From the sequence record PV357172.2: a stretch of 64,000 nucleotides of DNA; one strand, 5' to 3'. The position numbers and the translations under genes are program-made. Of the stretch, positions 7,139 through 23,107 are shown one piece after another. Each line of letters opens with the position of its first letter. Positions within the stretch are counted from its first letter, which is position 1. The notes beneath the pieces are model-generated. The model was not told where the DNA came from. It was given only the letters and a program-made list of their open reading frames with translations, and did not search any database. The DNA is from a phage.

Positions 7139-7155
7139 TATCCAGAAAATTTCAC

Positions 7156-7184
7156 TTGCTAAATGCCGAGATTTTCTGTATAAT
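7156..7184 (+). promoter_or_regulatory. sigma70-like early promoter
   Basis: TTGCTA 7156-7161, TATAAT 7179-7184. Confidence 0.6.
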
Positions 7185-7198
7185 ATATTTATAAATTC

Positions 7199-7290
7199 GG
7201 AAGATTAACCCTAATTGGTAAGGGAGCATCTTGCTAAGTTGCCAGTAGCTGTGGAAACACGGTGTATCGGTTCAAGTCCGATATCTTCCT
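7199..7290 (+). tRNA. tRNA-Ser (GCT), long variable arm
   Basis: Perfect acceptor GGAAGAT/ATCTTCC, anticodon loop TTGCTAA, T-loop TTCAAGT, encoded CCA. Confidence 0.75.
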
Positions 7291-7298
7291 CCAAATTT

Positions 7299-7373
7299 GG
7301 TTCTCAAGCTCATTTGGTATGAGCCGTCGCCTCATAAGCGAAAGGTAGGTAGGTTCGAATCCTCCGGGAGCCA
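7299..7373 (+). tRNA. tRNA-Met/fMet/Ile2 (CAT)
   Basis: D-stem GCTC/GAGC, anticodon loop CTCATAA, T-loop TTCGAAT, encoded CCA. Confidence 0.7.
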
Positions 7374-7393
7374 CCAGATAACTAGGAGACTTT

Positions 7394-7582
7394 ATGTCAC
7401 GCTTTCACGAAATTAAGCAAGAACTGGAAGAACTCGCCTGTCCTGAATGCTTTGGGACAGGTGAATGGAATGATGCTGAACCCGGGGATACGCGGTTTAA
7501 CACTTACGTTTGCACTCACTGTGAAGGTACTGGTGTAAACCCTCTTTACACTATTTCTCTTTTTGTAGGGGTTGCTAAATAA
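7394..7582 (+). CDS. small zinc-ribbon protein (CPEC...CTHCEG)
   Basis: 62-aa ORF with two CxxC pairs and AGGAG SD. Confidence 0.5.
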   Translation: MSRFHEIKQELEELACPECFGTGEWNDAEPGDTRFNTYVCTHCEGTGVNPLYTISLFVGVAK

Positions 7583-7588
7583 TGCACT

Positions 7589-7936
7589 TTGAAGATGATG
7601 AAAAAAGAAGCGTTCTACACTGTCCCAGCAATTAATCTGCTCGGTACTGTACTATTTCAGATTAAGTTCTACCTGCGAGACGACTACACTGAAGTGGTAA
7701 ACGCTATTGTACCTGAGTTCTTCGTAAATAATTTCCAAAAGGACTTTAAGTTCTTTATTGATGATGTTTACGATGGTGTGGTTGATCCGGCAGTAGCTCC
7801 AGCTATATACAATGTATTTAATTCTCTGCCAGATCTAGATTTTGATCTAGGACTTATTGAGTCTGGTGAGATTATCTGGGCACTTAATGTTCCAGTGACT
7901 GGATTCCCTGGTTGGCTGCAAGGTTACGAACTCTAA
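7589..7936 (+). CDS. hypothetical protein (115 aa)
   Basis: Track ORF; alternative start codon; no domain recognised. Confidence 0.45.
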   Translation: MKMMKKEAFYTVPAINLLGTVLFQIKFYLRDDYTEVVNAIVPEFFVNNFQKDFKFFIDDVYDGVVDPAVAPAIYNVFNSLPDLDFDLGLIESGEIIWALNVPVTGFPGWLQGYEL

Positions 7937-7944
7937 CAAAATTT

Positions 7945-8027
7945 GGATCTGTGGTGGAATTGGCAATACACACCATGCTTAAAACGTGGCGCTTAAATGA
8001 TTGAGGGTTCGAGCCCCTCCAGATCCA
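7945..8027 (+). tRNA. tRNA-Leu (TAA), long variable arm
   Basis: Acceptor GGATCTG/CAGATCC, anticodon loop CTTAAAA, T-arm GAGGG-TTCGAGC-CCCTC, encoded CCA. Confidence 0.7.
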
Positions 8028-8182
8028 CCAAATTAAGGAAGTAAAAATGAAATCTATTAAGAAAGCACTGCGTAAATTTATGTATTGTCGTTTTCATAGC
8101 ATCAAGGCTTCAACTAATGGTACTACTTACGATCGCTATGATCCTAAGTTTGGCTTACATTCTAAATAACTGGAGAAAACAA

Positions 8183-8389
8183 ATGGCTAATCCTGAAATT
8201 ACGGCACAACGCTTTATGCTGAAAGGAATTATTGCTGAAGCAGGCATGACAGAAGAAGTTGCAGATTTTCAAAAGCAATTCCTCAATATTCTCACTCAAG
8301 CCAAAGAGCTAGGAGAGAAAGAACATGGCGCGGCTATTATGGCAATCACATTGGTTGGGCTTGATCTGGCTGAAGAATCAGGAGTTTAA
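8183..8389 (+). CDS. hypothetical protein
   Basis: ATG 8183 preceded by GGAG; in frame with track ORF 8117-8389. Confidence 0.45.
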   Translation: MANPEITAQRFMLKGIIAEAGMTEEVADFQKQFLNILTQAKELGEKEHGAAIMAITLVGLDLAEESGV

Positions 8390-8419
8390 CTCCTCCAAGC
8401 AGAAATTTTAAAAATGTAC

Positions 8420-8449
8420 TTGCTTTTTACTTAAGATTTCTGCTATAAT
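8420..8449 (+). promoter_or_regulatory. sigma70-like early promoter
   Basis: TTGCTT 8420-8425, TATAAT 8444-8449. Confidence 0.55.
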
Positions 8450-8478
8450 AGTTATATAAGTTGATGAGAGGAATCAGA

Positions 8479-8754
8479 ATGTTAAAACGTTTTGCAGCAA
8501 CTGGTATTGAAAGCTCAGTATGTAAATCCTGGGGTGGTTGGGAAGGTGAGATCGAGTGGCTTTATTTCTACAATGTAGAACTTCTTCCAGAGATCAAAGC
8601 TCAATGTATTGAGGCTGGTATGGCTCCTGATGCTACGGCTGATGTTGAAATCAGCATGAATAAGCTAGAGGGTCGAGTAGTCACTGTTACTGATGAAGGT
8701 GAAGAGGTATTCGAACTTCCATTCACTTTGAAAGTCACTCCTTCATTTGATTAA
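8479..8754 (+). CDS. hypothetical protein
   Basis: ATG 8479 after conserved GATGAGAGG leader; in frame with track ORF. Confidence 0.5.
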   Translation: MLKRFAATGIESSVCKSWGGWEGEIEWLYFYNVELLPEIKAQCIEAGMAPDATADVEISMNKLEGRVVTVTDEGEEVFELPFTLKVTPSFD

Positions 8755-8785
8755 CTGATACAGCACTGAGCAAGTTCTTTAAAAT

Positions 8786-8819
8786 TTGACTTGCTCAGTA
8801 CCTTAAAACTTGGTATAAT
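8786..8819 (+). promoter_or_regulatory. sigma70-like early promoter
   Basis: TTGACT/TTGCTC 8786-8796, TATAAT 8814-8819. Confidence 0.55.
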
Positions 8820-8889
8820 AGTTATCTAATTTGGAAACATATTTAAAAGTATTCAAATACTAGTTTAAACACTTTTAAATGTACATCGT

Positions 8890-8963
8890 TGGCAGAATGG
8901 CTATTGTAGCGGTCTGTAAATCCGTGCCCTTCGGGATTGGTGGTTCGAATCTTACACGGCCCG
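8890..8963 (+). tRNA. tRNA-like element with Tyr-type anticodon loop (CTGTAAA); possible pseudogene
   Basis: GGTTCGAATC T-loop and CCA end are present but acceptor and T-stems do not pair canonically. Confidence 0.2.
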
Positions 8964-9068
8964 CCAAATTCTGTGTAGAGTTAAGTAAACCGGTAGCCAA
9001 CCAGCTATCATTGCTGACATCGAATTCAGCCACAGATACCATTTTCATTAATAACTGAGGAAATAGAT

Positions 9069-9254
9069 ATGACAACTCGTGCAATTGCTCGACTAGAAGC
9101 TGATCGTGATAATCTGATTAATAATATTAAGGTTCGTGGTAATATTATTAAGGCTCTGAAAGCTGAACTTCTTGAAGAACTTCAAGGTCAAGTAGAGCGT
9201 CGTGAAGCTCTAAAAGAGGTTGAGGAAGCTATCGAAAAACTCAAAGCTGAGTAA
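9069..9254 (+). CDS. small coiled-coil protein (61 aa)
   Basis: Track ORF with GAGGAAATAG SD-like sequence. Confidence 0.45.
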   Translation: MTTRAIARLEADRDNLINNIKVRGNIIKALKAELLEELQGQVERREALKEVEEAIEKLKAE

Positions 9255-9257
9255 ATT

Positions 9258-9839
9258 ATGCACGGAATATCCTTACCAATTCCAGGGTTTGAGGAGTACT
9301 TAGTAAGTTTGGATGGGTTAGTATTTAGTATCAAATCAAACAAAATACTAACCCCAATAACCAGTAATTACGGATACTTATCTATACGTCTCCATAAAAA
9401 TGGTCAACAGAGAAATACCGGTGTACATAGGATTTTAGCATGTGCATTTAAGAAATTACCAAGTCTAGACTCTGAACTAGAAGTTGACCATATTAACACA
9501 GACATTACTTATTGGGGTCTTAATAACTTACAAGTGCTCACAAAAGAGCAGCATCTAGAAAAGACTTTAAAAGATAAAGGATTTAGTAAACTAAACCATG
9601 ATAATTGTTGTAAGGATTGTGGTAAAGCTATTTCTTTAAAAGCTGAAAAATGTCAGGAGTGCTCTTCACATAAACCAAAAGATATCTCTATAACTAAAGA
9701 AATAATCGAGGTTACAGTAAGAGAGCTAGGCTGGTCAGGTGCAGGGAGAAAGTTAAGTTATTCAGATAATGGGTTGCGTAAAAGATACACTTCTTTAGGA
9801 GGCAATCCTAAAGAACTTAAAAAGTTAAAGGTACTATAG
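9258..9839 (+). CDS. HNH homing endonuclease
   Basis: LEVDHINTD...NNLQVLTKEQH HNH motif plus C-terminal Cys-rich region; stop codon overlaps the start of tRNA-Asp. Confidence 0.8.
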   Translation: MHGISLPIPGFEEYLVSLDGLVFSIKSNKILTPITSNYGYLSIRLHKNGQQRNTGVHRILACAFKKLPSLDSELEVDHINTDITYWGLNNLQVLTKEQHLEKTLKDKGFSKLNHDNCCKDCGKAISLKAEKCQECSSHKPKDISITKEIIEVTVRELGWSGAGRKLSYSDNGLRKRYTSLGGNPKELKKLKVL

Positions 9840-9901
9840 TCTAACGGTTAGGATACTCCCCTGTCACGGGAGAGGTAGGGTTTCGATTACCCTTAGTACC
9901 G
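9830..9901 (+). tRNA. tRNA-Asp (GTC)
   Basis: Perfect acceptor GGTACTA/TAGTACC, anticodon stem CTCCC/GGGAG, loop CTGTCAC, T-arm AGGGT-TTCGATT-ACCCT, CCA. Confidence 0.85.
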
Positions 9902-9910
9902 CCAAATTAT

Positions 9911-9984
9911 ACATCCATAGCTCAATTGGTTAGAGCTACCGCCTCTTAAGCGGTAGGTTCTAGGTTCAAGTCCTAGTGGGTGTA
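9911..9984 (+). tRNA. tRNA-Lys (CTT)
   Basis: D-stem GCTC/GAGC, anticodon stem ACCGC/GCGGT, loop CTCTTAA, T-arm CTAGG-TTCAAGT-CCTAG, CCA. Confidence 0.85.
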
Positions 9985-10114
9985 CCAAACATCAGAGCAG
10001 CGTGATGTACTGCAAAGACCCAAAGTCCGGGGTGGACTTCTTGATTCAAAGGAGCAGGCACTAATTATCATTCTAGCGTGGTGGAGAGGGGACACCAGCT
10101 TGCCGAGGGTAGAA

Positions 10115-10191
10115 GCTCGTTCGATTCGAGTGAAAGAATGGTTCTCGTAAATCCGCACAAGTGATAGCAGGTTCAAGTCCTGCCTAGATTG
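10115..10191 (+). other. two tRNA-like T-arm elements without canonical acceptor stems
   Basis: GCTCG-TTCGATT-CGAGT and GCAGG-TTCAAGT-CCTGC; no complementary 5' acceptor found. Confidence 0.2.
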
Positions 10192-10200
10192 ACTTATTAT

Positions 10201-10271
10201 GCGTTCGTAGTTAAAAGGTATAATTTTTGGTTGCCAACCAGAAGTTGAGGGTTCGATTCCCTCCGACCGCA
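10201..10271 (+). tRNA. tRNA-Gly (GCC)
   Basis: Anticodon loop TTGCCAA, T-arm GAGGG-TTCGATT-CCCTC, acceptor 6/7 paired, CCA. Confidence 0.75.
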
Positions 10272-10527
10272 CCAAATTTAGGTTTCTGCTTCCTAGAGAA
10301 CGGACTCCTAGATAAACAAGGCGATGAGTTTCCGGCCGGTTCTAGTCGCTGAAAATCCTCCCGACCAGGTAGGTGTAAGTAAATGAAAGTTTACTTATTG
10401 AGTAGGTTCCGATAGACCGGCGGGTCTATTCTGGCATTTAAGAGAGGTCTCGCAAACTTCTTTGTCAGCCGTGGGGTTGGTAGCCTCCAGGTGGCCTACA
10501 CAATAAGTAAATTTATTAAAAATTCAT

Positions 10528-10556
10528 TTGCTATTCTGCTTAATTCTCTGTATAAT
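10528..10556 (+). promoter_or_regulatory. sigma70-like early promoter
   Basis: TTGCTA 10528-10533, TATAAT 10551-10556. Confidence 0.6.
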
Positions 10557-10587
10557 ATATTTTATAAAGTGAGTTAACAAAAATTAA

Positions 10588-10660
10588 CAGTGCGTAGCGC
10601 AGTTGGTAGCGTGGGAGCCTTGGGTGCTTCGGGTCGCAGGTTCGAGTCCTGCCGCACTGA
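10588..10660 (+). tRNA. tRNA-Pro (TGG)
   Basis: Perfect acceptor CAGTGCG/CGCACTG, anticodon loop CTTGGGT, T-arm GCAGG-TTCGAGT-CCTGC, CCA. Confidence 0.85.
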
Positions 10661-10669
10661 CCAAACAAT

Positions 10670-10744
10670 TGCGGGTTAGATCTCTGGTAGAGATCGCTAG
10701 TCTCATAAGCTAGAAAGAGGTAGGTTCGATTCCTGCACCCGCTT
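10670..10744 (+). tRNA. tRNA with CAT anticodon (Met/fMet/Ile2)
   Basis: Anticodon stem CTAGT/GCTAG, loop CTCATAA, T-loop TTCGATT, 1:72 U-U mismatch, CCA. Confidence 0.75.
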
Positions 10745-10921
10745 CCATTTTAATAGAGGATTTCGAAATGAAAGTATTTCGATTAGTAGTAAGTGACAAA
10801 CGGTTAGGTAAGAATACATCAAAATCCTTACTTGCTCATTATGGTAAAAATTGGGATGAAGTAATGGCAGAGTTTAATACTAATCACCCTTACTTGAAAG
10901 TTCACTCTATTAAGGAAGTTT

Positions 10922-11395
10922 ATGCTTATTAACAGGGTGCTTCAAGCTCTAGATCTTCCAGAGCTCTTTACTATTACCGACCCCTTAATACATCGGTATA
11001 TGGAAAAGTATAATGAAATCTCTGGTAAAAAAGGGAAACTAAAATCCTCAGAATTTAAGTTCTGTTATAGAATGGCAGCATTAAACCTCTTAAAGTACAA
11101 GAGGGAGCATAAAATCCCTATAACAGAAGGATTTGTCTATGTAATAGGTAGTCCAGCATGGCCTGGACTATATAAGATAGGTATGACAGTAGATGTGAAT
11201 GAAAGACTGTCTAGTTATCAAACATATTCGCCTTATCGTGATTACAAGTTATACCATTTCAGATTCTCCTCGGACAAGAGAAGAACTGAAAAAGCATTAC
11301 ATAACCTTCTGAAGGACTACAAAGTATCAGGAGAATGGTTTGAAGTACCTCTGTTAGACGCCTTCAAACTATTAGTAGAAAATTTGGATTGCTAA
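10922..11395 (+). CDS. GIY-YIG-like (T5orf172-domain) homing endonuclease
   Basis: GFVYVIGS...YKIGMT...ERLSSY...EWFEV matches the T5orf172 pattern; stop overlaps tRNA-Lys start. Confidence 0.65.
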   Translation: MLINRVLQALDLPELFTITDPLIHRYMEKYNEISGKKGKLKSSEFKFCYRMAALNLLKYKREHKIPITEGFVYVIGSPAWPGLYKIGMTVDVNERLSSYQTYSPYRDYKLYHFRFSSDKRRTEKALHNLLKDYKVSGEWFEVPLLDAFKLLVENLDC

Positions 11396-11460
11396 CTCAA
11401 CTGGATAAGAGTACCGGACCTTTAATCCGTCAGTTCTGGGTTCGAATCCCAGGCAATCCA
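11386..11460 (+). tRNA. tRNA-Lys (TTT)
   Basis: Perfect acceptor GGATTGC/GCAATCC, D-stem ACTC/GAGT, loop CCTTTAA (unusual C33), T-arm CTGGG-TTCGAAT-CCCAG, CCA. Confidence 0.75.
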
Positions 11461-11481
11461 CCAATTTCAAGAAAAACTCAG

Positions 11482-11511
11482 TTGCTTGATGCTTAATTTC
11501 TTGTTATAATA
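11482..11511 (+). promoter_or_regulatory. sigma70-like early promoter
   Basis: TTGCTT 11482-11487, TATAAT 11506-11511. Confidence 0.55.
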
Positions 11512-11748
11512 TTTATATAAATTGATGAGGAGAAATCCTCATCATAGTTCACTAAGGTATTAGCTCGACCTAGGACTGGCTGCCAAAAAGCACGATCCCT
11601 ACGATTTGGGAGAAGTTCTAGATTAGTCCACTAGATTCAGCGGCAACTGAATAGTGTATCGGTTTTGCGAGATGACGCGGTTCCTTCCGCTCGAAGCGAA
11701 GGTGCTGTAGTTACGCCGAGCTAATAGCCTTAGTAAACTAAGGAATTT

Positions 11749-11819
11749 GGGGATATAGTTTAATGGTAGAACATCTGCTTTGCACGCAGAAGACGAGGGT
11801 TCAACTCCCTCTTTCTCCA
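11749..11819 (+). tRNA. tRNA-Ala (TGC)
   Basis: Anticodon stem TCTGC/GCAGA, loop TTTGCAC, T-arm GAGGG-TTCAACT-CCCTC, CCA. Confidence 0.75.
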
Positions 11820-11827
11820 CCAAATTT

Positions 11828-11909
11828 GGGGCTATGCTGGAACTGGTAGACAATACGGCCTTAGATTCCGTAGCTTAAATGCGTGGGAGTTCGAGTCTCC
11901 CTAGCCCCA
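11828..11909 (+). tRNA. tRNA-Leu (TAG), long variable arm
   Basis: Perfect acceptor GGGGCTA/TAGCCCC, anticodon TAG in the loop, T-arm GGGAG-TTCGAGT-CTCCC, CCA. Confidence 0.65.
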
Positions 11910-11928
11910 CCAACTTATAGGGTAATGT

Positions 11929-12513
11929 ATGCAGTTTGTACCAATAAAAGATGCACCAGGGTATTTAGTAAATGAAACAGGGGATGTGTTATCTACATTT
12001 ACTAATAAAATCTTATCAAGATATATAGTTGATGGGTACCCTGCTGTAAAATTACAGATAAATGGTAAGCAAACTTCGGTACTTATACACCGAATTATTT
12101 CTCATGTATTTGGGGACTTATATAATCTATTTGACCCTGAATTAGAAGTAGATCACAAGGATAGAGATAGGCTGAATCTATCTAAAGATAATCTTCAAGT
12201 TTTATCAAAAATAGAACATCAGAAGAAAACTAATAAAGATAATGGATGGTCTGATAGTAGAGTACCTTGCCCCTTATGTGGAAATCTAATGCTTCAGAGA
12301 TCAGTAACATGTACAAATTGTAAGCCAAAACCTACAGGAAAGTTAATAAAACCAGAATTGTCCTTAGAAGACATAACTGAAAAGGTTTTATTAATGGGGT
12401 GGGTTAAGGCAGCTAAAGATCTAGAAGTATCAGAGTCCACTTTACGTAGACGATATACTAAACTAACCGGATTAAGCCCGAAAGTATTAACAGAACAACG
12501 GAAAAGCAAATAG
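11929..12513 (+). CDS. HNH homing endonuclease
   Basis: HRIISHVFG...LEVDHKDRDRLNLSKDNLQVL HNH motif plus CxxC pairs; 3' end overlaps tRNA-Ser. Confidence 0.8.
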   Translation: MQFVPIKDAPGYLVNETGDVLSTFTNKILSRYIVDGYPAVKLQINGKQTSVLIHRIISHVFGDLYNLFDPELEVDHKDRDRLNLSKDNLQVLSKIEHQKKTNKDNGWSDSRVPCPLCGNLMLQRSVTCTNCKPKPTGKLIKPELSLEDITEKVLLMGWVKAAKDLEVSESTLRRRYTKLTGLSPKVLTEQRKSK

Positions 12514-12590
12514 ACTGGTGACTAAACCCGATTGGAAATCGGTTGAGTGGTAGCAATACCGCCTTATGGGTTCAACTCCCATCTTTTCCG
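12500..12590 (+). tRNA. tRNA-Ser (GGA), long variable arm
   Basis: Perfect acceptor GGAAAAG/CTTTTCC, anticodon loop TTGGAAA, T-arm ATGGG-TTCAACT-CCCAT, CCA. Confidence 0.7.
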
Positions 12591-12605
12591 CCAAACAATT
12601 TATAT

Positions 12606-12697
12606 GGTAGGTCAATCCAATGGCTGGCGCTGGACTCCGACTTGAAATCGGTTGATCGTAGTGATACGGTGTAAGGGTTCGATCCCCTTACCTACCT
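12606..12697 (+). tRNA. tRNA-Ser (TGA), long variable arm
   Basis: Perfect acceptor GGTAGGT/ACCTACC, anticodon loop CTTGAAA, T-arm AAGGG-TTCGATC-CCCTT, CCA. Confidence 0.7.
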
Positions 12698-12712
12698 CCA
12701 AATCTTGAAGTA

Positions 12713-12837
12713 TGCCGGAATCGGTAGACGGGGCTGCCTAAAAGGTTTATAGGGAACATCCACTCCCTGCAACATACCTCATAAAGCGGCTGAGATAAAT
12801 GGTCTATCTCGTGAAGGTTCAAGTCCTTCTGCTTCTT
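12713..12837 (+). other. tRNA-like element (type-II D-arm and a T-arm, no canonical acceptor stem)
   Basis: GGAATCGGTAGACGG D-arm-like segment and GAAGG-TTCAAGT-CCTTC T-arm separated by about 80 nt. Confidence 0.2.
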
Positions 12838-13066
12838 GATACATCTATGGCTCAAAGTGTAACGGTGCTATTTGATGCTCTTGGTAAGACTTCCCCGACA
12901 TGCGTTCGGGAGTAAGCTGCTAAGACTAGAGTAGAAGAGTTTCTGAGAGCCGCCACAATTGAAAATTCGTACTCGTCTTGAGCTGCGTGCAATAGGAGAT
13001 AACTTGATTAGTATTCTAGAACATGCTAATTGAGGATGGTTTCGCTAACCCTGCGAGTTTTCAATT

Positions 13067-13140
13067 GTGGCTATATCATAATTGGTTAATGATCCTGATT
13101 GTGAATCAGGCCTATGTGGATTCGAATTCCACTAGCCACC
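13067..13140 (+). tRNA. tRNA-His (GTG)
   Basis: Perfect acceptor GTGGCTA/TAGCCAC, anticodon stem CCTGA/TCAGG, loop TTGTGAA, T-arm GTGGA-TTCGAAT-TCCAC, CCA. Confidence 0.8.
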
Positions 13141-13168
13141 CCAAATTAACTTAAATAGGAAATAAAAT

Positions 13169-13369
13169 ATGGCTGATTTCTGCAAGCAATGCTCCCTTGA
13201 TATGTGGGGCAGAGATACTGGTGACTTATCTGGTCTGATTACAGAAGCCGAAGTCAAAGAAGGTTATAGTGCAGTTGTGATTTGTGAAGGCTGCGGTGTT
13301 ATCCGTGTAGACCACACCGGTAAGCGTTTGGAAGAACCAGTTCCAATTGCGCAAGTTCCTGTAGAATAA
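13169..13369 (+). CDS. small zinc-ribbon protein (66 aa)
   Basis: CKQC ... CEGCG Cys pairs. Confidence 0.5.
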   Translation: MADFCKQCSLDMWGRDTGDLSGLITEAEVKEGYSAVVICEGCGVIRVDHTGKRLEEPVPIAQVPVE

Positions 13370-13377
13370 AAAATTAT

Positions 13378-13450
13378 TGGAGTGTAGCTCAACTGGCAGA
13401 GCGACGGTTTCTGACACCGTAGGTTTCTAGTTCGATCCTAGACATTCCAG
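13378..13450 (+). tRNA. tRNA-Gln (CTG)
   Basis: D-stem GCTC/GAGC, anticodon stem ACGGT/ACCGT, loop TTCTGAC, T-arm TCTAG-TTCGATC-CTAGA, CCA. Confidence 0.85.
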
Positions 13451-13459
13451 CCAAACAAT

Positions 13460-13534
13460 TGGGGATTAGCTTAGCTTGGCCTAAAGCTTCGGCCTTTGAA
13501 GTCGAGATCATTGGTTCAAATCCAATATCCCCTG
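13460..13534 (+). tRNA. tRNA-Gln (TTG)
   Basis: Anticodon stem TCGGC/GTCGA, loop CTTTGAA, T-arm ATTGG-TTCAAAT-CCAAT, 1:72 U-U, CCA. Confidence 0.75.
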
Positions 13535-13545
13535 CCAAACAATAA

Positions 13546-13618
13546 GCGATTAAGCACACGGGTTGTGCCGCAGGCCTTCCAAGCCCCGCTGAGTAGGGTT
13601 CGATTCCCTCTAGCCGCT
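13546..13618 (+). tRNA. tRNA, anticodon uncertain (possibly Trp CCA)
   Basis: Good T-arm (TTCGATT), acceptor with one mismatch and CCA end; anticodon stem pairs poorly. Confidence 0.5.
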
Positions 13619-13638
13619 CCAACTTTAAGGAAACATTT

Positions 13639-13860
13639 ATGCACGTTTTTGAGTTTCGTGATAAAAGTAACAATAAACGAGTTATTGTTATTGGAGAAAC
13701 ATACCTAGCATACGAACAAACTGATGGCTCTGTTATCTTGAATGATGAGAAAGCAAATTTTAGCTTTTATCCAGAAGAACCTTATGAAGAGTTTCGTACT
13801 AAGTTTCTTTTACCAGACTGGCTAGCAGTAGCCGAGCAACGAGAATCCGAAGATGGCTGA
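13639..13860 (+). CDS. hypothetical protein (73 aa)
   Basis: Track ORF with AAGGAAA SD-like sequence. Confidence 0.5.
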   Translation: MHVFEFRDKSNNKRVIVIGETYLAYEQTDGSVILNDEKANFSFYPEEPYEEFRTKFLLPDWLAVAEQRESEDG

Positions 13861-14025
13861 TAACCTAAAATTAAGGGTTGACAAACAAAAGAAATACGTT
13901 GAGGTTGAATTAGGCGAAGAACGCTTAAAGCTAACTTTCGAGTTTCTTCAGCAGTTGGCTATGACAGTCATGACTGATAAGTCTCCTGTTATTGAAAAAG
14001 AAATCCCGTTGAAATAGGAAGCAAC

Positions 14026-14418
14026 ATGGAGTTTACTTGTTTAAATTGCGGAATCACAAAACCTAAAAGTAGGGGTTCCGCAGGTAAGTATTGTGGTGCT
14101 GCTTGTCAGCAGGAGTACCAGACAAAGCAAAAAGTATTAAAGTGGCTGGCAGGTGAAGAACCTGGTTATACTGGTAAAGCTGCACAATTAAAACCTTTTG
14201 TTAGGAAGTGGCTGTGGGATACTCGTGGTACTGCTTGTGAAGTATGTGGTTGGGATGGGAAACATCCAATTGACGGAGCAGTTTTAACTGAGGTAGATCA
14301 TATAGATGGAGATGCAACTAACTGTTCTCCAGAAAATCTAAAGATTCTCTGCCCTAACTGTCACTCTATGACACCTACGCATAGGGCCAGAAATAGAGTT
14401 TCAACAAGACAACGATAG
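14026..14418 (+). CDS. HNH endonuclease (zinc-binding)
   Basis: VDHIDGD...NLKILCPNCH HNH motif plus N-terminal CxxC pairs; stop TAG supplies G1 of tRNA-Thr. Confidence 0.75.
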   Translation: MEFTCLNCGITKPKSRGSAGKYCGAACQQEYQTKQKVLKWLAGEEPGYTGKAAQLKPFVRKWLWDTRGTACEVCGWDGKHPIDGAVLTEVDHIDGDATNCSPENLKILCPNCHSMTPTHRARNRVSTRQR

Positions 14419-14489
14419 CTCTTAAAGCATTGCTGGCGATGCAACGGTCTTGTAAACCGTGGAACCGGGTTCGATTCCTGGTGGGAGCA
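14418..14489 (+). tRNA. tRNA-Thr (TGT)
   Basis: Acceptor GCTCTTA/TGGGAGC, anticodon stem ACGGT/ACCGT, loop CTTGTAA, T-arm CCGGG-TTCGATT-CCTGG, CCA. Confidence 0.8.
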
Positions 14490-14507
14490 CCAAAATTAAA
14501 AAATTCA

Positions 14508-14537
14508 TTTGCCTTCTCTCTTATTTCTTGTTATAAT
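14508..14537 (+). promoter_or_regulatory. sigma70-like early promoter
   Basis: TTTGCC -35-like 14508-14513, TATAAT 14532-14537. Confidence 0.5.
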
Positions 14538-14567
14538 ATTTATATAAATTAATGAGAGGGAAACCAA

Positions 14568-14861
14568 ATGAAACGTTATCTTTCTGTCGTGTTCCAAACT
14601 GGTGGTCAACGCTACACTTATGAATTTCCTGAGTCCTGGAAAATTAAAGAAGGTGATCAAGTTGTTGTATTAACACCTCGTGAAGGCTTCAAAGTAGTAA
14701 CGGTTAAACAAGTATTTCCAAAAGATCACGAACCATCTAAGGCTATTCAGTACAAGATGATTCATGGTCTGGTACGAAAAGTACCTAGAACAGAAGTCGA
14801 AGTAGATAAAACTGGGGAAGCTAAATACCAGTATACCTCTTACTTAGATGAAATGATGTAA
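14568..14861 (+). CDS. hypothetical protein (97 aa)
   Basis: Track ORF after promoter and GAGAGGGAAACC leader. Confidence 0.5.
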   Translation: MKRYLSVVFQTGGQRYTYEFPESWKIKEGDQVVVLTPREGFKVVTVKQVFPKDHEPSKAIQYKMIHGLVRKVPRTEVEVDKTGEAKYQYTSYLDEMM

Positions 14862-14862
14862 T

Positions 14863-14935
14863 GCTCTGATAGTTCAACAGGTTAGAACAGACGACCGATA
14901 ATCGTCAAATCTTGGTTCGATCCCAAGTCGGAGTA
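14863..14935 (+). tRNA. tRNA-Ile (GAT)
   Basis: Anticodon stem GACGA/TCGTC, loop CCGATAA, T-arm CTTGG-TTCGATC-CCAAG, CCA. Confidence 0.8.
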
Positions 14936-14944
14936 CCAAATTAT

Positions 14945-15017
14945 AGTTAGTTGGCAGAGTGGTTATGCACCTCCTTCATACGGAGCGACTACAGTGGTTC
15001 AAATCCACTACTAACTA
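14945..15017 (+). tRNA. tRNA with CAT anticodon (Met/fMet/Ile2)
   Basis: Perfect acceptor AGTTAGT/ACTAACT, loop TTCATAC, T-arm AGTGG-TTCAAAT-CCACT, CCA. Confidence 0.8.
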
Positions 15018-15023
15018 CCAAAC

Positions 15024-18639: not shown

Positions 18640-19338
18640 ATGAGGATTATTTCTAAGTTCGCCGATGTGTATGATTTGCAGAACAGTTTGTTCGACCCAG
18701 ATCGTGTGTGGGAACGTAAAACTGAGGAGTTGCTGGTTAAAGTAACCGATGATGCAGAAAAGAATATTGTGCATACTCGCCAGGTATTTCGTGATGGTTC
18801 GCTATCTTTCCGTGGTGATTTCGAATACTTCGTAAACCCCCTATTTGTTGCAGGTGAAGTTTACTGGTTACATGAGCTGTACTGCTGGCATCCAGCATTT
18901 AGCTTCAAAACGTTCGACCTCGACACTATGTTCGATAAAATGGAAGAGATGGGATTGCATGCTCGCTCTTACTTAATGGATAAGAGTCGTGGAGATGTTC
19001 GTGAAACAATGCGTGATCTGCTCGCTGAAGCAAAACCTAAAGCAGAACGTATCTTATCCGAACTGCGTGTACCGATTGCATATGTGAAAGGTATTAAAAA
19101 GAACGATAACGATGATGTTCGTAACTTCGTAATTCAGACTAACATTCGTTTCCATCAGTCCGGTATTCCGTGGCAGGAAATTGAAAGTAACTTATACCGT
19201 TTACACCAAGTTCTCGAACAGTATATCTTCGGTGTACTAGGAACTGGTGAGCCTGATATGATTAAAGTATCAGATAAAGACAGGTTAGCAGCGCATGGAT
19301 TTGATACAAAAACTTCTTTCAGGAATATGGCACGGTAA
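18640..19338 (+). CDS. hypothetical protein (232 aa)
   Basis: Track ORF with GAGG SD. Confidence 0.55.
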   Translation: MRIISKFADVYDLQNSLFDPDRVWERKTEELLVKVTDDAEKNIVHTRQVFRDGSLSFRGDFEYFVNPLFVAGEVYWLHELYCWHPAFSFKTFDLDTMFDKMEEMGLHARSYLMDKSRGDVRETMRDLLAEAKPKAERILSELRVPIAYVKGIKKNDNDDVRNFVIQTNIRFHQSGIPWQEIESNLYRLHQVLEQYIFGVLGTGEPDMIKVSDKDRLAAHGFDTKTSFRNMAR

Positions 19339-19744
19339 GTGGTATATCCTGGGAGCAGGTCTAGCGATAGGCATCGGGTTCGGTGCTTATCACTTAGTAG
19401 ATAAAGTGGAGACTTTAGCAGGAGATCTTGCGGTAGCTACTAAAAAGATTTCTTCTCTAGAGACTTCCCTCAATAAGGTGAAAGCTGAAAGCGAACTTCG
19501 TGAGACTAGAATGAATCAGTATTTCACAATGAATAATATTTTGCAAGCAGATCTAGACAAAAAGATTAAGCAGTTAGACAAAGCTCTTAGTCGCCAAGAT
19601 ATTATAGCTGCAAAGCCTGGATTGGTAACATTAATTGCTAAAAAGCAGAGTAAAGAGTTCGAGGAAAGATTAGCGTGTTTAACTGGAAACTTGGAATACT
19701 GCTCGCAGCCGCAATCACAATCACAGGCTGTGCAGAAGAAATAA
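19295..19744 (+). CDS. membrane-anchored coiled-coil protein; i-spanin candidate
   Basis: N-terminal TM helix (WYILGAGLAIGIGFGAY) followed by a long coiled coil. Confidence 0.4.
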   Translation: MDLIQKLLSGIWHGKWYILGAGLAIGIGFGAYHLVDKVETLAGDLAVATKKISSLETSLNKVKAESELRETRMNQYFTMNNILQADLDKKIKQLDKALSRQDIIAAKPGLVTLIAKKQSKEFEERLACLTGNLEYCSQPQSQSQAVQKK

Positions 19745-20028
19745 AACCAGAGCCATCTCATGAGTTAAAGCAAGCTCATGTAGACTGGCCTAAAGGACTT
19801 CAGCCTTGTAGCTTTGATTTCAAATTCGAAAAGAAATTAGCTACAAATGGCGAAGATGGCGTAGTAGTTGTTGTACCATATAAAGATTGGAATGCAAAAG
19901 CAAAATGTGAGGAAGCAGTTTACTCTTACATTTCACGACTGACTGGTATGGTCTGCTTCTATCGTCAAGATTTACAAGAAAAACGTTGCTTAGTTTACTA
20001 TCCACCCATTACAAATAGGAAAGATTAA
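19675..20028 (+). CDS. lipoprotein; o-spanin candidate
   Basis: Signal peptide with lipobox ITGC; gene overlaps the 3' end of the preceding gene in another frame. Confidence 0.4.
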   Translation: MFNWKLGILLAAAITITGCAEEIKPEPSHELKQAHVDWPKGLQPCSFDFKFEKKLATNGEDGVVVVVPYKDWNAKAKCEEAVYSYISRLTGMVCFYRQDLQEKRCLVYYPPITNRKD

Positions 20029-20699
20029 TGTCAGTATTAGTCGGTTTACATGGTGAAGCTGGTTCGGGAAAAGATACCGTTGCAAAATTAATTATCGATT
20101 GGTGTAATGACACGTATCCAACGTGTTTACCCCGTCGTTACAGTTTTGCTAAGCCCGTTTATGAACTTGCATCCGTAATCCTCGGTGTAACTCCAGAGTT
20201 TCTAGGAGAGCGCAGGGGAAAAGAGATTGATCAATGGTTTACGGTCACACAATCTCAATTGGAGCGAGCCAGAGATGTGTGGTTTAAGTACGGTATCGAT
20301 AAGTTTGAAGACTTCTCGTACGTTTGGCCTATTTTTGAGGAAAAATATCTTAATCCCCAACAACTTATCTCAGAGAGTAAAGAAGACGGACTTTATAGTT
20401 TATTTATTTCTCCGAGAAAAATGTTACAGCTCGTAGGAACAGAGCTAGGAAGGCAGCTGGTGCATGAACGCATTTGGCTCATAATTCTGGAGCAATCCAT
20501 CGCTAAAGACGACCCAGACGTCGCCGTAATAACAGATGTTAGATTCCCCAATGAAGGAAAGCTACTCAGAGAAACAAACCATTTAGATATGGATTCTTTG
20601 ATAGTAAATGTAGTACCGCTGAGCAGAAGTTTACTATTAAATCAGATCATCCATCTGAAAGTGGTATTCCTGCAAATATATTACTCACGAATTAGTTAA
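20028..20699 (+). CDS. P-loop kinase, dNMP kinase-like
   Basis: Walker A GLHGEAGSGKDT at the N-terminus. Confidence 0.5.
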   Translation: MSVLVGLHGEAGSGKDTVAKLIIDWCNDTYPTCLPRRYSFAKPVYELASVILGVTPEFLGERRGKEIDQWFTVTQSQLERARDVWFKYGIDKFEDFSYVWPIFEEKYLNPQQLISESKEDGLYSLFISPRKMLQLVGTELGRQLVHERIWLIILEQSIAKDDPDVAVITDVRFPNEGKLLRETNHLDMDSLIVNVVPLSRSLLLNQIIHLKVVFLQIYYSRIS

Positions 20700-20790
20700 T
20701 AAATTCGATGGTATCAATAACCTTAAACTAGAAGTTTATAACTTCTGTGACTTAGAGCTAGAACCACTAGTTGGATAATCAAGGATCGCT

Positions 20791-21390: not shown

Positions 21391-21400
21391 GTAATTTTAA

Positions 21401-21431
21401 GCCAGGGTTTAACGACCCTGGCTTTTCTTTT
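21401..21431 (+). terminator. rho-independent terminator
   Basis: GCCAGGGTTTAACGACCCTGGC hairpin followed by a T-run. Confidence 0.65.
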
Positions 21432-21546
21432 ATCTAAAATTCTTCTTGACAACGACAAAATTTTATGCTCCAGAAGTGATCTTTAAAAACACATTGTAAT
21501 TTTCCTCCAAAATTAGTATAATGGTACTGGTTAGAGGAGGTTACAA

Positions 21547-22203
21547 TTGGAAAAGTTCTTACAATTATTAACGGTACTGCTCCAAGAAGCGAAAGATCCA
21601 GCATCGCTTCTTAAACGTCTGCTAACTATCTTAGTTGCTGTCATTATTTTCTTATTTGTTAGTAATACTAGCGAGGTGATGTCATTCTTAAAGACTTTCT
21701 CCACGTCTGCGGTTCTACAGGATGTTCAAACTCAAAGGATAGATAACTTTCCTAATGTAGCTAGAGAAAAGAGCATGGTACTTTTTTCTCAAACGGGTGC
21801 GGATGCTGTTTTTGTCGTCAAGTATAAACCAGATGCTATTAATGATTATTCTAACATTATTGCATGGGAAAGCAATGCGCAATTAGATAGGGCTGACTTG
21901 GCCGATAAAGCGGTAAATAAAACGTCTGAGCTATATAGACGTCACTTGGAGGGCTTTAACTACGCATCGGATTTAAGTGTAAAAGTAAATAAATACATGG
22001 GGTTAAATATACCTGCGTTTAAGAACGTTACTTTTAATTACATATACACTTGTCCGTATTTCAATCTAAACAATATCTATGCTGGATATATTGGTATTGC
22101 TTGGAAAGATAACCCTGTAGATGCAGCCGATTCTGAGAAATTTAAGGAATATTTAACAAAGCTCTGTTCACCACAACAGAGATCTTTAGGTAGATCAATA
22201 TGA
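21547..22203 (+). CDS. holin (218 aa)
   Basis: TTG start 7 nt after GGAGG; N-terminal TM helix; immediately upstream of and overlapping the endolysin gene. Confidence 0.55.
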   Translation: MEKFLQLLTVLLQEAKDPASLLKRLLTILVAVIIFLFVSNTSEVMSFLKTFSTSAVLQDVQTQRIDNFPNVAREKSMVLFSQTGADAVFVVKYKPDAINDYSNIIAWESNAQLDRADLADKAVNKTSELYRRHLEGFNYASDLSVKVNKYMGLNIPAFKNVTFNYIYTCPYFNLNNIYAGYIGIAWKDNPVDAADSEKFKEYLTKLCSPQQRSLGRSI

Positions 22204-22613
22204 GTTTTAAATTTGGTAAAAATAGCGAAAAACAATTAGCTACCGTTAAGCCAGAGCTACAAAAAGTAGCTCGTAGAGCTTTAGAATTATCTCCATATGA
22301 TTTCACGATCGTACAAGGTATTCGTACAGTAGCACAAAGTGCCCAGAATATTGCTAATGGTACTTCATTTTTAAAAGATCCTAGTAAAAGTAAGCATATT
22401 ACTGGGGATGCCCTTGATTTTGCTCCATACATTAATGGCAAAATTGATTGGAATGACTTAGAAGCATTTTGGGCAGTTAAAAAGGCTTTTGAACAGGCCG
22501 GTAAAGAACTAGGCGTTAAACTTCGTTTTGGTGCTGATTGGAATGCTTCGGGAGATTATCACGATGAAATAAAACGTGGTACCTATGATGGCGGTCATGT
22601 CGAACTAGTTTAA
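22200..22613 (+). CDS. lys: endolysin, L-alanyl-D-glutamate peptidase (M15-type)
   Basis: 137 aa; sequence (MSFKFGKNSEKQ...DGGHVELV) matches the T5 endolysin as I recall it. Confidence 0.85.
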   Translation: MSFKFGKNSEKQLATVKPELQKVARRALELSPYDFTIVQGIRTVAQSAQNIANGTSFLKDPSKSKHITGDALDFAPYINGKIDWNDLEAFWAVKKAFEQAGKELGVKLRFGADWNASGDYHDEIKRGTYDGGHVELV

Positions 22614-22690: not shown

Positions 22691-23107
22691 ATGTTTGCAG
22701 AACTATTCACTATGATGCTGCTAGGTATCTGGAAAATAAGTCTAGTAGTATTCGTTTTAATGATAGTCTTTACTATCCTTGCATTAACTACCCGAAATAG
22801 CTTATTAATAAAGGTTATTCACGGACTAGAGTATATAATTATGGGTTCATTCGGCGTTTGTAAATGCAATTGCCATAGAGATACGAAATATTGTTGGTTA
22901 TGGATGGAACTAGAGAATCCTATATCCATAGCTTTGGCTGTTTCATTCGGTATGATTCTTATGGCCCTTACTCTAGCATTAATACCTTTGATGTTAGCTG
23001 GGGGAGTTACAGCGTATTTCACCCTTTTCTCCCCGATACTTATGTACTCAATTTACCCAATAACTATGTATCTAGTTAGGAAAAGATTTATACATGCAGT
23101 AGATTAA
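22691..23107 (+). CDS. polytopic membrane protein (138 aa)
   Basis: Four hydrophobic segments; downstream of the lysis genes. Confidence 0.5.
   Translation: MFAELFTMMLLGIWKISLVVFVLMIVFTILALTTRNSLLIKVIHGLEYIIMGSFGVCKCNCHRDTKYCWLWMELENPISIALAVSFGMILMALTLALIPLMLAGGVTAYFTLFSPILMYSIYPITMYLVRKRFIHAVD

What the first reader, a model, noticed from the sequence alone, without database searches (positions are those of the whole stretch)
19295..20028. Possible two-component spanin pair located 1.5 kb from the holin-endolysin genes
A membrane-anchored coiled-coil protein is overlapped at its 3' end, out of frame, by a lipoprotein gene with lipobox ITGC. This is the classic i-spanin/o-spanin arrangement, but it is separated from the holin-endolysin pair by kinase-like and ClpP-like genes. 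The lipoprotein is Cys-rich rather than Pro-rich, so the call is tentative.
Basis: inference. Interest (0 to 1): 0.4.

Follow-up and report, generated by a model that had tools for sequence, protein, structure and literature searches.

The report
Known T5-type two-component spanin genes
These two overlapping genes are the already catalogued spanin pair of T5-like phages, relatives of the tested phage T4 spanins, which break the host outer membrane in the last step of lysis; this is an ordinary, correctly read feature.

Summary
The window is a Tequintavirus (T5-like) genome, 98.6% identical in DNA to Salmonella phages vB_Sen-E22 and SaI_NFG_5581.

- **i-spanin:** ORF 19295-19744, 149 aa, with an N-terminal membrane helix, a heptad-repeat helix and a C-terminal CX7C motif.
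- **o-spanin:** ORF 19675-20028, 117 aa, GTG start, lipobox ITG|C19 with Ala at +2. It overlaps the i-spanin by exactly 70 nt in another frame.
- **Both are real genes:** pN/pS is 0.21 and 0.14 in their own frames, against 1.6-2.5 in the wrong frames.
- **Family matches:** they hit PHROG 739 and 812 ('Rz-like spanin'), the same families as T4 PseT.3 and PseT.2. Profile-profile comparison with the T4 families gives 94.7% and 99.3% probability.
- **Prior record:** T5 genes T5.045/T5.044 are annotated as spanins. Kongari et al. 2018 list a 'T5 family' overlapping by 70 bp, and showed that the T4 homologues complement lambda Rz/Rz1.
- **The Cys-rich point:** this is the T4-type o-spanin signature. 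C94 and C105 align with the essential T4 C87 and C98.
- **The 1.5 kb gap:** the order spanins-dnk-ClpP-like, terminator, promoter, holin-endolysin is conserved across the sampled Demerecviridae genera.

Function in T5-like phages is inferred, not tested.

The parts
19295..19744 (+). i-spanin gene (149 aa), the homologue of T5.045 and T4 PseT.3
   Evidence: ORF. PHROG 739 'Rz-like spanin', E 2e-37. BLASTP against T4 PseT.3: 28% identity, E 2e-5. hhalign against the T4 family: probability 94.7%, E 6e-8. pN/pS 0.21.
19343..19399 (+). N-terminal transmembrane helix of the i-spanin (residues about 17-35, YILGAGLAIGIGFGAYHLV). Lys6 and Lys15 on the N-terminal side suggest an N-in, C-out topology.
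   Evidence: Hydropathy maximum, 1.55 over 19 residues from residue 17. The segment aligns with the T4 PseT.3 membrane helix. The topology is inferred from the positive-inside rule.
19400..19504 (+). Membrane-proximal periplasmic helix with a heptad (coiled-coil-like) repeat, residues 36-70
   Evidence: L/I/V/M fill 70% of the a/d positions against 8% elsewhere; 7 of 2000 shuffles reach this. AlphaFold2 draws a helix over residues 3-101, but at low confidence (pLDDT 49.5).
19607..19627 (+). AAKPGLV linker motif between the two periplasmic helices (residues 105-111; Pro108 is invariant)
   Evidence: Pro108 is the only invariant column across 52 T5-type and T4-type i-spanins. The motif aligns with AHKPGLV of T4 PseT.3. 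The AlphaFold2 helix breaks at residues 102-111.
19676..19702 (+). C-terminal CX7C motif of the i-spanin (C128-LTGNLEY-C136). It is encoded by the same bases as the first nine codons of the o-spanin.
   Evidence: Cys positions. The motif is present in 22 of 52 family representatives and absent from the T4 PseT.3 sequence examined; 28 representatives have no cysteine. C128, T130, G131, N132 and C136 are invariant among the Demerecviridae sequences. The motif is kept even where a homing endonuclease has separated the two genes.
19661..19665 (+). Shine-Dalgarno-like GAGGA, 9 nt upstream of the o-spanin GTG
   Evidence: Read directly from the sequence.
19675..20028 (+). o-spanin gene (117 aa, GTG start), the homologue of T5.044 and T4 PseT.2
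   Evidence: PHROG 812, E 3.5e-30. BLASTP against T4 PseT.2: 29% identity, E 2e-7. hhalign: probability 99.3%, E 1.2e-20. All database relatives carry Pfam PF26831. pN/pS 0.14. Foldseek matches are o-spanins and PseT.2.
19675..19744 (+). 70-nt dual-coding overlap: the i-spanin C-terminus in frame 0, and the o-spanin signal peptide plus 5 residues in frame +2
   Evidence: The same 70 nt overlap occurs in 25 of 28 related contigs and is the value published for T5. In the overlap, pN/pS is 0.27 in the i frame and 1.5 in the o frame.
19720..19731 (+). Lipobox I-T-G-C19. Cys19 is the predicted lipidated first residue of the mature protein; Ala at +2 means no inner-membrane retention signal.
   Evidence: Sequence. 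ITITGC is identical in all 29 T5-like loci. G18 and C19 are invariant or nearly so in 59 family representatives, and none has Asp at +2.
19807..19908 (+). Span between the extra cysteine pair C45 (19807-19809) and C78 (19906-19908) of the o-spanin, flanking the predicted beta-hairpin. Probably an intramolecular disulfide.
   Evidence: Among 59 representatives both are present in 9 and both absent in 50; neither ever occurs alone. Strands at residues 50-55 and 61-66, and a helix at 69-96, are predicted with pLDDT about 80-93. The disulfide itself is inferred.
19954..19989 (+). C-terminal cysteine pair C94...C105 (CFYRQDLQEKRC), equivalent to T4 PseT.2 C87 and C98
   Evidence: Aligned with the T4 cysteines. 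Present in 58 of 59 representatives. In T4 both are essential for lysis (PMC6139136).
18546..18574 (+). Sigma-70-like promoter upstream of ORF 18640..19338, the likely start of the transcription unit that holds the spanins
   Evidence: 9 of 12 consensus match; this is weak evidence, because the region has no more such matches than shuffled sequence. T5 has an annotated promoter at the equivalent place, upstream of T5.047.
21399..21424 (+). Intrinsic terminator after the ClpP-like gene. It ends the unit ORF232, i-spanin, o-spanin, dnk, ClpP-like.
   Evidence: An 11-bp stem followed by a T run. T5 has an annotated terminator at the same place.
21494..21522 (+). Promoter of the separate holin-endolysin unit
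   Evidence: 10 of 12 match, TTGTAA-17-TATAAT. T5 has an annotated promoter upstream of the holin.
21547..22203 (+). T4-type holin (partner lysis gene)
   Evidence: Pfam Phage_holin_T, E 8e-114. PHROG 860 holin, E 2e-78.
22200..22613 (+). Endolysin, an M15-type peptidase (partner lysis gene)
   Evidence: PHROG 465 endolysin, E 3e-54. Pfam Peptidase_M15_4, E 1e-4, just below the curated cut-off. Homologue of T5 lys, T5.040.

Best explanation
The two genes encode the two-component spanin of a T5-like phage. It belongs to the same protein families as the T4 spanins PseT.3 and PseT.2.

How the complex is built (inferred from sequence):
- The i-spanin is anchored in the inner membrane by one N-terminal helix. 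It reaches into the periplasm as a long helix with a coiled-coil segment, a conserved AAKPGLV hinge, a second helix and a CX7C tail.
- The o-spanin is exported, lipidated on Cys19 and sorted to the inner leaflet of the outer membrane, because it has Ala and not Asp at +2. It carries a flexible linker and a small beta-hairpin-plus-helix domain.
- That domain is probably stabilised by a C45-C78 disulfide, and it ends in the C94/C105 pair.

How it acts (by analogy with lambda and T4):
- The two proteins bind through their C-terminal parts and span the periplasm, threaded through the peptidoglycan.
- The complexes are made from an operon shared with nucleotide-metabolism genes, and they wait.
- The T-type holin permeabilises the inner membrane, and the M15-type peptidase endolysin then removes the peptidoglycan.
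- The complexes are then free to cluster and change shape, and they fuse or disrupt the outer membrane. This completes lysis.

Shown here: the gene structure, purifying selection on both frames, the targeting signals, homology to the T4 pair, and conserved synteny.
Inferred: localisation, disulfides, complex formation and the membrane-fusion step.
For: - Identity of the window: a Tequintavirus, 98.6% DNA identity to phages in which these ORFs are annotated 'Rz-like spanin' or 'i-spanin'. The T5 reference genes T5.045 and T5.044 carry the same annotation, with notes citing T4 PseT.3 and PseT.2.
- Families: PHROG 739 (E 2e-37) and 812 (E 3.5e-30). T4 PseT.3 and PseT.2 hit the same PHROGs (E 1e-37 and 5e-42).
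- Direct homology to T4: BLASTP E 2e-5 for the i-spanin and 2e-7 for the o-spanin. hhalign probabilities are 94.7% and 99.3%. The weakest tblastn hit of the o-spanin is an annotated pseT.2 in a T4-like phage.
- All 60 database relatives of the o-spanin carry one Pfam family, PF26831. The family has 293 representatives at 50% identity, all small proteins.
- Defining signals: membrane helix, heptad repeat, lipobox, and no Asp at +2 in any of 59 representatives.
- The cysteines essential in T4 are conserved.
- Both frames are under purifying selection.
- The 70-nt overlap equals the published T5 value.
- The order spanins, dnk, ClpP-like, holin, endolysin is conserved in five Demerecviridae lineages, even where the endolysin type differs.
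- The predicted o-spanin fold (beta-hairpin plus helix, core pLDDT 80-93) matches the published beta-alpha-beta description of PseT.2 and finds o-spanins by Foldseek.
- The T4 pair complements lambda RzamRz1am (PMC6139136).
Against: - No experiment on a T5-type spanin turned up in the searchable literature, so function rests on homology at 20-30% identity to the tested T4 pair.
- The i-spanin structure prediction is of low confidence (pLDDT 49.5).
- The local Pfam and NCBIfam libraries gave no family hit for either protein.
- No solved structure resembles the o-spanin model (best PDB E 1.2).
- The genes lie in a different transcription unit from holin and endolysin, and their timing was not examined.
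- The i-o interaction could not be modelled with the tools at hand.
Confidence: 0.93

Rival explanations
1. The pair is an envelope complex with a role other than lysis. One example would be a lytic-conversion or superinfection-exclusion lipoprotein, like T5 Llp or Cor, with a membrane partner expressed early to modify the host envelope.
For: The genes sit in an operon with nucleotide-metabolism and protease genes, not with holin and endolysin. T5 is known to make another lipoprotein, Llp, that blocks its receptor (mentioned in PMC4342426). No T5-type spanin has been tested directly.
Against: Both proteins are homologous to the T4 pair, which functionally replaces lambda Rz/Rz1. The cysteines essential for T4 spanin function are conserved. 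The genes always occur as an adjacent membrane-protein plus lipoprotein pair, next to the holin-endolysin unit. In T4 the spanin genes likewise lie apart from the other lysis genes.
Confidence: 0.04
2. The genes are spanin homologues that are dispensable or inactive in T5-like phages, where another factor breaks the outer membrane.
For: There is no experimental evidence either way for T5-type phages. The pair is often interrupted or flanked by homing endonuclease genes.
Against: There is strong purifying selection on both genes (pN/pS 0.14-0.21). The lipobox, the cysteines and the overlap register are conserved across genera that share only 35-45% identity. After an endonuclease insertion both genes stay intact, and the o-spanin has a rebuilt signal peptide.
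Confidence: 0.02
3. The lipoprotein ORF is a chance out-of-frame ORF, and only the coiled-coil membrane protein is a real gene.
For: Many deposited genomes annotate only one of the two ORFs.
Against: pN/pS is 0.14 in the proposed frame against 1.8-2.1 in the other frames. The ORF matches a family of 293 representative proteins, with PHROG 812 at E 3.5e-30. The lipobox and cysteines are invariant. Missing annotation of overlapped o-spanins is a documented gene-caller bias (PMC6139136).
Confidence: 0.01

Closest known systems
Phage T5 spanins T5.045 (i-spanin) and T5.044 (o-spanin): the 'T5 family' of overlapped two-component spanins in Kongari et al. 2018 (PMC6139136)
   Same: Orthologues, 88% and 91% amino-acid identity. 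Same lengths (147-149 and 117 aa), the same 70-nt overlap, the same lipobox ITITGC, the same six periplasmic cysteines and the same neighbours, dnk and the ClpP-like gene.
   Different: T5 has the HNH homing endonuclease hegF directly upstream and a different i-spanin cytoplasmic N-terminus (MRKWFVDLVW...). In the window the i-spanin starts MDLIQKLLSGIW... and overlaps the 3' end of the upstream 232-aa ORF by 44 nt.
Phage T4 PseT.3 / PseT.2 spanins, shown experimentally to complement lambda Rz/Rz1
   Same: The same PHROG families (739 and 812) and, for the o-spanin, Pfam PF26831. Shared features are the AxKPGLV hinge, an i-spanin with an N-terminal membrane helix and a coiled-coil first helix, a structured o-spanin with a C-terminal CxYRxxLxExxC pair, and a location away from the holin and endolysin.
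   Different: Only 20-30% identity. The T4 genes are 'separated' (a 4-nt overlap), while these overlap by 70 nt. T4 PseT.3 has no cysteine, whereas this i-spanin has a C-terminal CX7C extension. T4 PseT.2 has two periplasmic cysteines, whereas this o-spanin has four. Kongari et al. list the T4 and T5 groups as separate families.
Lambda Rz / Rz1, the prototype two-component spanin
   Same: The same logic: a type II inner-membrane protein with periplasmic coiled coils plus an outer-membrane lipoprotein, encoded in overlapping frames, with periplasmic cysteines, acting last in lysis (PMC6139136).
   Different: No detectable sequence similarity in these searches. Rz1 is fully embedded within Rz and is short, Pro-rich and unstructured. 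Here the o-spanin is only partly overlapped and is predicted to be folded and Cys-rich. The lambda genes sit directly after the holin and endolysin in one late transcript (established knowledge).

Membership tests
Two-component spanin (definition of Summer et al. 2007 and Kongari et al. 2018) | i-spanin: a small protein with a single N-terminal transmembrane helix and a mostly helical periplasmic domain with coiled-coil propensity | tested here: met
   The hydropathy peak is at residues 17-35. Heptad pattern at residues 36-70, reached by 7 of 2000 shuffles. All-helical prediction, though at low confidence.
Two-component spanin (definition of Summer et al. 2007 and Kongari et al. 2018) | o-spanin: a small protein with a signal peptidase II signal, a lipobox Cys and no inner-membrane retention residue (Asp) at +2 | tested here: met
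   MFNWK, then a hydrophobic core, then ITG|C19, then A20. Identical in 29 T5-like loci. No Asp at +2 in 59 representatives.
Two-component spanin (definition of Summer et al. 2007 and Kongari et al. 2018) | The two genes are adjacent and co-oriented, in an embedded, overlapped or separated architecture | tested here: met
   Overlapped class: 70 nt shared, frame +2.
Two-component spanin (definition of Summer et al. 2007 and Kongari et al. 2018) | At least one periplasmic cysteine, able to form intermolecular disulfides | tested here: met
   Two in the i-spanin (C128, C136) and four in the o-spanin (C45, C78, C94, C105). Actual disulfide formation was not tested.
Two-component spanin (definition of Summer et al. 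2007 and Kongari et al. 2018) | The phage also encodes a holin and an endolysin and infects a Gram-negative host | tested here: met
   Holin T (E 8e-114) and an M15-type peptidase endolysin lie 1.5 kb downstream. The closest relatives infect Salmonella and E. coli.
Two-component spanin (definition of Summer et al. 2007 and Kongari et al. 2018) | The i- and o-spanin form a periplasm-spanning complex and are required for outer-membrane disruption (they complement lambda Rz/Rz1) | not testable with these tools
   This needs genetics and biochemistry. It has been done for the homologous T4 pair (PMC6139136) but, as far as the searchable literature shows, not for a T5-type pair.
T4 PseT.3 / PseT.2 protein families (PHROG 739 / 812; Pfam PF26831 for the o-spanin) | Significant sequence and profile similarity of both partners to the T4 proteins | tested here: met
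   PHROG E 2e-37 and 3.5e-30, the same PHROGs as T4. BLASTP E 2e-5 and 2e-7. hhalign 94.7% and 99.3%. PF26831 on all relatives.
T4 PseT.3 / PseT.2 protein families (PHROG 739 / 812; Pfam PF26831 for the o-spanin) | A conserved C-terminal cysteine pair in the o-spanin (T4 C87 and C98, both essential) | tested here: met
   C94 and C105 align with them. Present in 58 of 59 representatives.
T4 PseT.3 / PseT.2 protein families (PHROG 739 / 812; Pfam PF26831 for the o-spanin) | Predicted beta-alpha(-beta) folded periplasmic domain of the o-spanin | tested here: met
   AlphaFold2 gives strands at 50-55 and 61-66 and a helix at 69-96, with core pLDDT 80-93. Foldseek finds PseT.2 and o-spanin models.
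T5 spanin family (Kongari et al. 2018, overlapped class) | Close sequence identity to T5.045 and T5.044, with a 70-bp overlap | tested here: met
   88% and 91% identity to T5. 70-nt overlap.

The most novel reading that the evidence does not exclude
T5-type spanins may be a mechanistically distinct, more heavily disulfide-bonded branch of the T4-type family. Unlike T4, both partners carry cysteines near their C-terminal interaction ends: the i-spanin has CX7C and the o-spanin has C94/C105 plus the extra C45/C78 pair. They could therefore form a covalent heterotypic i-o link, a true covalent bridge from inner to outer membrane. This has not been seen in the two systems studied, lambda and T4. 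In addition, the first Cys codon of the i-spanin overlaps the o-spanin start codon in every genus examined, which would lock the CX7C motif and the signal peptide into one dual-coding module.
Probability: 0.1. Interest if true: 0.4.

Novelty: already known. Interest (0 to 1): 0.08.

Why it matters
Very little changes. The finding re-discovers from raw sequence a gene pair that is annotated in the T5 reference genome and listed in the curated spanin census.

Its practical value is for annotation. Many deposited T5-like genomes still call one or both ORFs 'hypothetical', or omit the overlapped lipoprotein gene.

The only mildly open points concern function. No T5-type spanin appears to have been tested. 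The role of the extra cysteines, the i-spanin CX7C and the o-spanin C45/C78, is also unknown.

Tried and rejected
- Pfam-A and NCBIfam scans of both proteins gave no meaningful family. The local Pfam copy evidently lacks PF26831, which the protein database lists for all relatives. The sub-threshold FtsL and LcrE hits were dismissed as coiled-coil noise.
- A Foldseek search of the o-spanin model against the PDB found nothing (best E 1.2), so no solved structure is available for comparison.
- The AlphaFold2 model of the i-spanin monomer was poor (pLDDT 49.5). Only its secondary-structure pattern was used, and with caution.
- The search for related loci with the diverse alignment failed for lack of a conserved stretch. 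The single protein was used instead, so that set of loci covers only close T5-like relatives. More distant genera came from the phage collection.
- Literature searches for an experimental test of a T5-type spanin found only genome announcements and the bioinformatic census.
- A chance ORF was rejected on the selection test. A Llp-like exclusion lipoprotein was rejected on homology to PseT.2. A sequencing-error artefact in the spanin region was rejected because there are no indels there relative to four relatives.
- Searches (term too short; file path) were technical errors with no result.
Full report
**What the window is.** The 901 bases around the finding match 447 phage records. The best matches are at 98.6% identity: Salmonella phages vB_Sen-E22 and SaI_NFG_5581, genus Tequintavirus, family Demerecviridae. 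The window is therefore a T5-like phage genome. It also holds the T5-style tRNA cluster, with 19 tRNAs at 4053-15020.

**Checking the observation.**
- ORF 19295..19744 (ATG start, 149 aa) has its hydropathy maximum at residues 17-35.
- It has a heptad pattern at residues 36-70: L/I/V/M fill 70% of the a/d positions against 8% elsewhere, a value reached by 7 of 2000 shuffles.
- ORF 19675..20028 begins at the only start codon, a GTG, after an in-frame stop at 19651, with GAGGA 9 nt upstream.
- It encodes 117 aa starting MFNWKLGILLAAAITITG|CAEE. That is a positively charged n-region, a hydrophobic core, the lipobox I-T-G-C19 and Ala at +2.
- The overlap is 70 nt and the frame offset is +2.
- The lipoprotein has four more cysteines (45, 78, 94, 105) and only 7 prolines. 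The membrane protein has two cysteines (128, 136).
- The o-spanin stop is 1518 nt upstream of the holin start.
- Between them lie a dNMP kinase (Pfam DNMK) and a ClpP-like protease (Pfam CLP_protease). They are followed by a holin (Phage_holin_T, E 8e-114) and an M15-type peptidase endolysin (PHROG 465, E 3e-54).

**More than chance.** I took 28 related viral contigs and located both genes in each.
- Twenty-five have the identical 70-nt overlap.
- Three have the genes about 670 nt apart, because another gene has been inserted between them.
- Across 26 distinct aligned sequences, pN/pS is 0.21 for the i-spanin-only part and 0.14 for the o-spanin-only part in the proposed frames. The same DNA read in the other frames gives 1.6-2.5. 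Both are genuine protein-coding genes.
- Inside the overlap, divergence is lower. The i-spanin frame looks constrained (0.27) and the o-spanin frame looks relaxed (1.5). This fits a signal peptide that only needs to stay hydrophobic.

**What it is.**
- The two proteins hit PHROG 739 (E 2e-37) and PHROG 812 (E 3.5e-30), both labelled 'Rz-like spanin'. T4 PseT.3 and PseT.2 hit the same two PHROGs (E 1e-37 and 5e-42).
- Direct BLASTP against the T4 proteins gives 28% identity (E 2e-5) for the i-spanin, including the AAKPGLV/AHKPGLV motif.
- For the o-spanin it gives 29% identity (E 2e-7), with the lipobox aligned and C94/C105 matched to T4 C87/C98.
- Profile-profile comparison of Demerecviridae against T4-like alignments gives 99.3% probability (E 1e-20) for the o-spanins and 94.7% (E 6e-8) for the i-spanins.
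- All 60 database relatives of the o-spanin carry one Pfam family, PF26831. An exhaustive profile search finds 293 representatives at 50% identity, all small proteins.
- AlphaFold2 with a 59-sequence alignment predicts a signal helix, an unstructured linker (residues 20-49), a beta-hairpin (50-55 and 61-66) and a long helix (69-96), with core pLDDT 80-93. This fits the published description of PseT.2.
- Foldseek against viral models returns o-spanins and PseT.2 proteins. Nothing in the PDB resembles the model.
- The i-spanin model is of low confidence (pLDDT 49.5). It shows a long helix, a break at residues 102-111 over the AAKPGLV motif, and a second helix.

**Already known.**
- The T5 reference genome annotates T5.045 and T5.044 as 'Rz-like spanin', with notes pointing to T4 PseT.3 and PseT.2.
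- The spanin census of Kongari et al. 2018 (PMC6139136) lists a T5 family among both i-spanins and o-spanins (T5, EPS7, Stitch, SPC35, AKFV33, FFH1, DT57C, My1, phiR201, Shivani).
- It states that 'the T5 spanins overlap by 70 bp'. [quoted passage not shown]
- The same paper shows that T4 pseT.3/pseT.2 complement lambda RzamRz1am, that both PseT.2 cysteines are essential, and that the T4 spanin genes are not near the holin or endolysin.
- Genome announcements for Shivani and Sugarland describe the same lysis gene set.
- I found no paper that tests a T5-type spanin experimentally.

*Cys-rich, not Pro-rich.* This is the hallmark of the T4-type o-spanin.
- Among 59 family representatives, C94 and C105 are present in 58.
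- C45 and C78 are both present in 9 and both absent in 50, and never occur singly. This points to an extra intramolecular disulfide bracing the beta-hairpin against the helix in the T5 branch. That is an inference.
- The CX7C motif of the i-spanin is present in 22 of 52 representatives and absent from the T4 PseT.3 sequence examined; 28 representatives have no cysteine at all.

*Distance from holin-endolysin.*
- The order ORF232, i-spanin, o-spanin, dnk, ClpP-like, then holin and endolysin recurs in Tequintavirus, Sugarlandvirus and Pantoea phage AAS21. Priunavirus and Novosibvirus keep the same order from the spanins onward but lack an ORF232-sized gene upstream.
- This holds even where the endolysin is a lysozyme instead of a peptidase.
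- In the window a strong terminator (21399-21424) and a promoter (21494-21522) separate the two units. T5 has annotated signals at the same places.

**Mechanism.** By homology and analogy, the i-spanin sits in the inner membrane and the o-spanin in the inner leaflet of the outer membrane. They bind through their C-terminal parts and span the periplasm within the peptidoglycan mesh. The T-type holin opens the inner membrane and the endolysin removes the wall. The complexes are then free to cluster and refold, and they fuse or rupture the outer membrane. Only the sequence-level parts are shown here; localisation, disulfides, complex formation and fusion are inferred.

**Small details seen on the way.**
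- The o-spanin start codon overlaps the first Cys codon of the i-spanin CX7C motif. The same bases therefore encode CLTGNLEYC in one frame and MFNWKLGIL in the other.
- Both strings stay recognisable in genera that share only 35-45% protein identity.
- The i-spanin cytoplasmic N-terminus comes in three versions, which track what lies upstream.
- The locus is a hot spot for homing endonucleases in relatives. The window has none.

**Verdict.** The feature is an already known member of the T5 spanin family, itself homologous to the tested T4 spanins. Interest is low.

Noticed in passing
window 20028..20780 (indels near 20616 and 20674): The dNMP kinase gene directly after the o-spanin is broken. 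There are two isolated 1-nt deletions in homopolymers (CCC to CC, and AAAA to AAA) relative to four close relatives and T5, giving a 223-aa ORF instead of 250 aa. This is either a homopolymer sequencing error or a real pseudogene. No such indels occur in the spanin genes.
   Followed up: partly
L003 (T5) 4246-4743; L034 (phage H8) 2412-2909, 3315-4013 and 4356-4892: In T5-like phages the spanin locus is a hot spot for homing endonuclease insertions. An HNH gene sits upstream of the i-spanin, a T5orf172/MUG113 plus zinc-finger gene sits between the i- and o-spanin, and another HNH gene sits between the o-spanin and dnk. The window carries none of them. After the middle insertion the o-spanin has a new N-terminus (MHKIK...) but the same lipobox.
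   Followed up: partly
window 19295..19342: The cytoplasmic N-terminus of the i-spanin exists in three unrelated versions among close relatives (MDLIQKLLSGIW, MIKNFI.SLW and MRKWFVDLVW). They correlate with whether the gene overlaps the upstream ORF, is spaced from it, or follows an HNH endonuclease.
   Followed up: partly
window 21547..22203: The holin is a clear member of the T4 holin T family (Pfam Phage_holin_T, E 8e-114). T5-like phages therefore combine a T4-type holin and T4-type spanins with an unrelated M15-type peptidase endolysin. Some Demerecviridae relatives have a lysozyme in that position instead.
   Followed up: partly
window 18640..19338: A conserved 232-aa protein of unknown function (PHROG 4243, no Pfam hit) lies directly upstream of the i-spanin, which overlaps it by 44 nt here. 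It appears to be the first gene of the same transcription unit. Genes of the same size sit in that position in Sugarlandvirus and in Pantoea phage AAS21.
   Followed up: no
window 22691..23107: A 138-aa multi-pass membrane protein lies directly after the endolysin. Its T5 counterpart is T5.039, annotated with four transmembrane domains. It has no Pfam family. Its position next to the lysis genes might suggest a role in lysis control, but this was not examined.
   Followed up: no
L008 3208-3549 (Providencia phage PR1) and L007 3181-3588 (Klebsiella phage Shiner): The annotated i-spanins of these relatives look N-terminally truncated. The PR1 product has no membrane helix as annotated and is mislabelled 'outer membrane lipoprotein i-spanin'. 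In Proteus phage PL1 the i-spanin is not annotated at all, although the ORF is present.
   Followed up: no
window 4053..15020 and 57539..61198: There is a cluster of 19 tRNA genes upstream of the lysis region. A 1219-aa ORF lies far downstream on the same strand. That length matches, from memory, the T5 tape-measure protein pb2, but the ORF was not searched. If so, the record joins the early region to the late region across the genome end.
   Followed up: no
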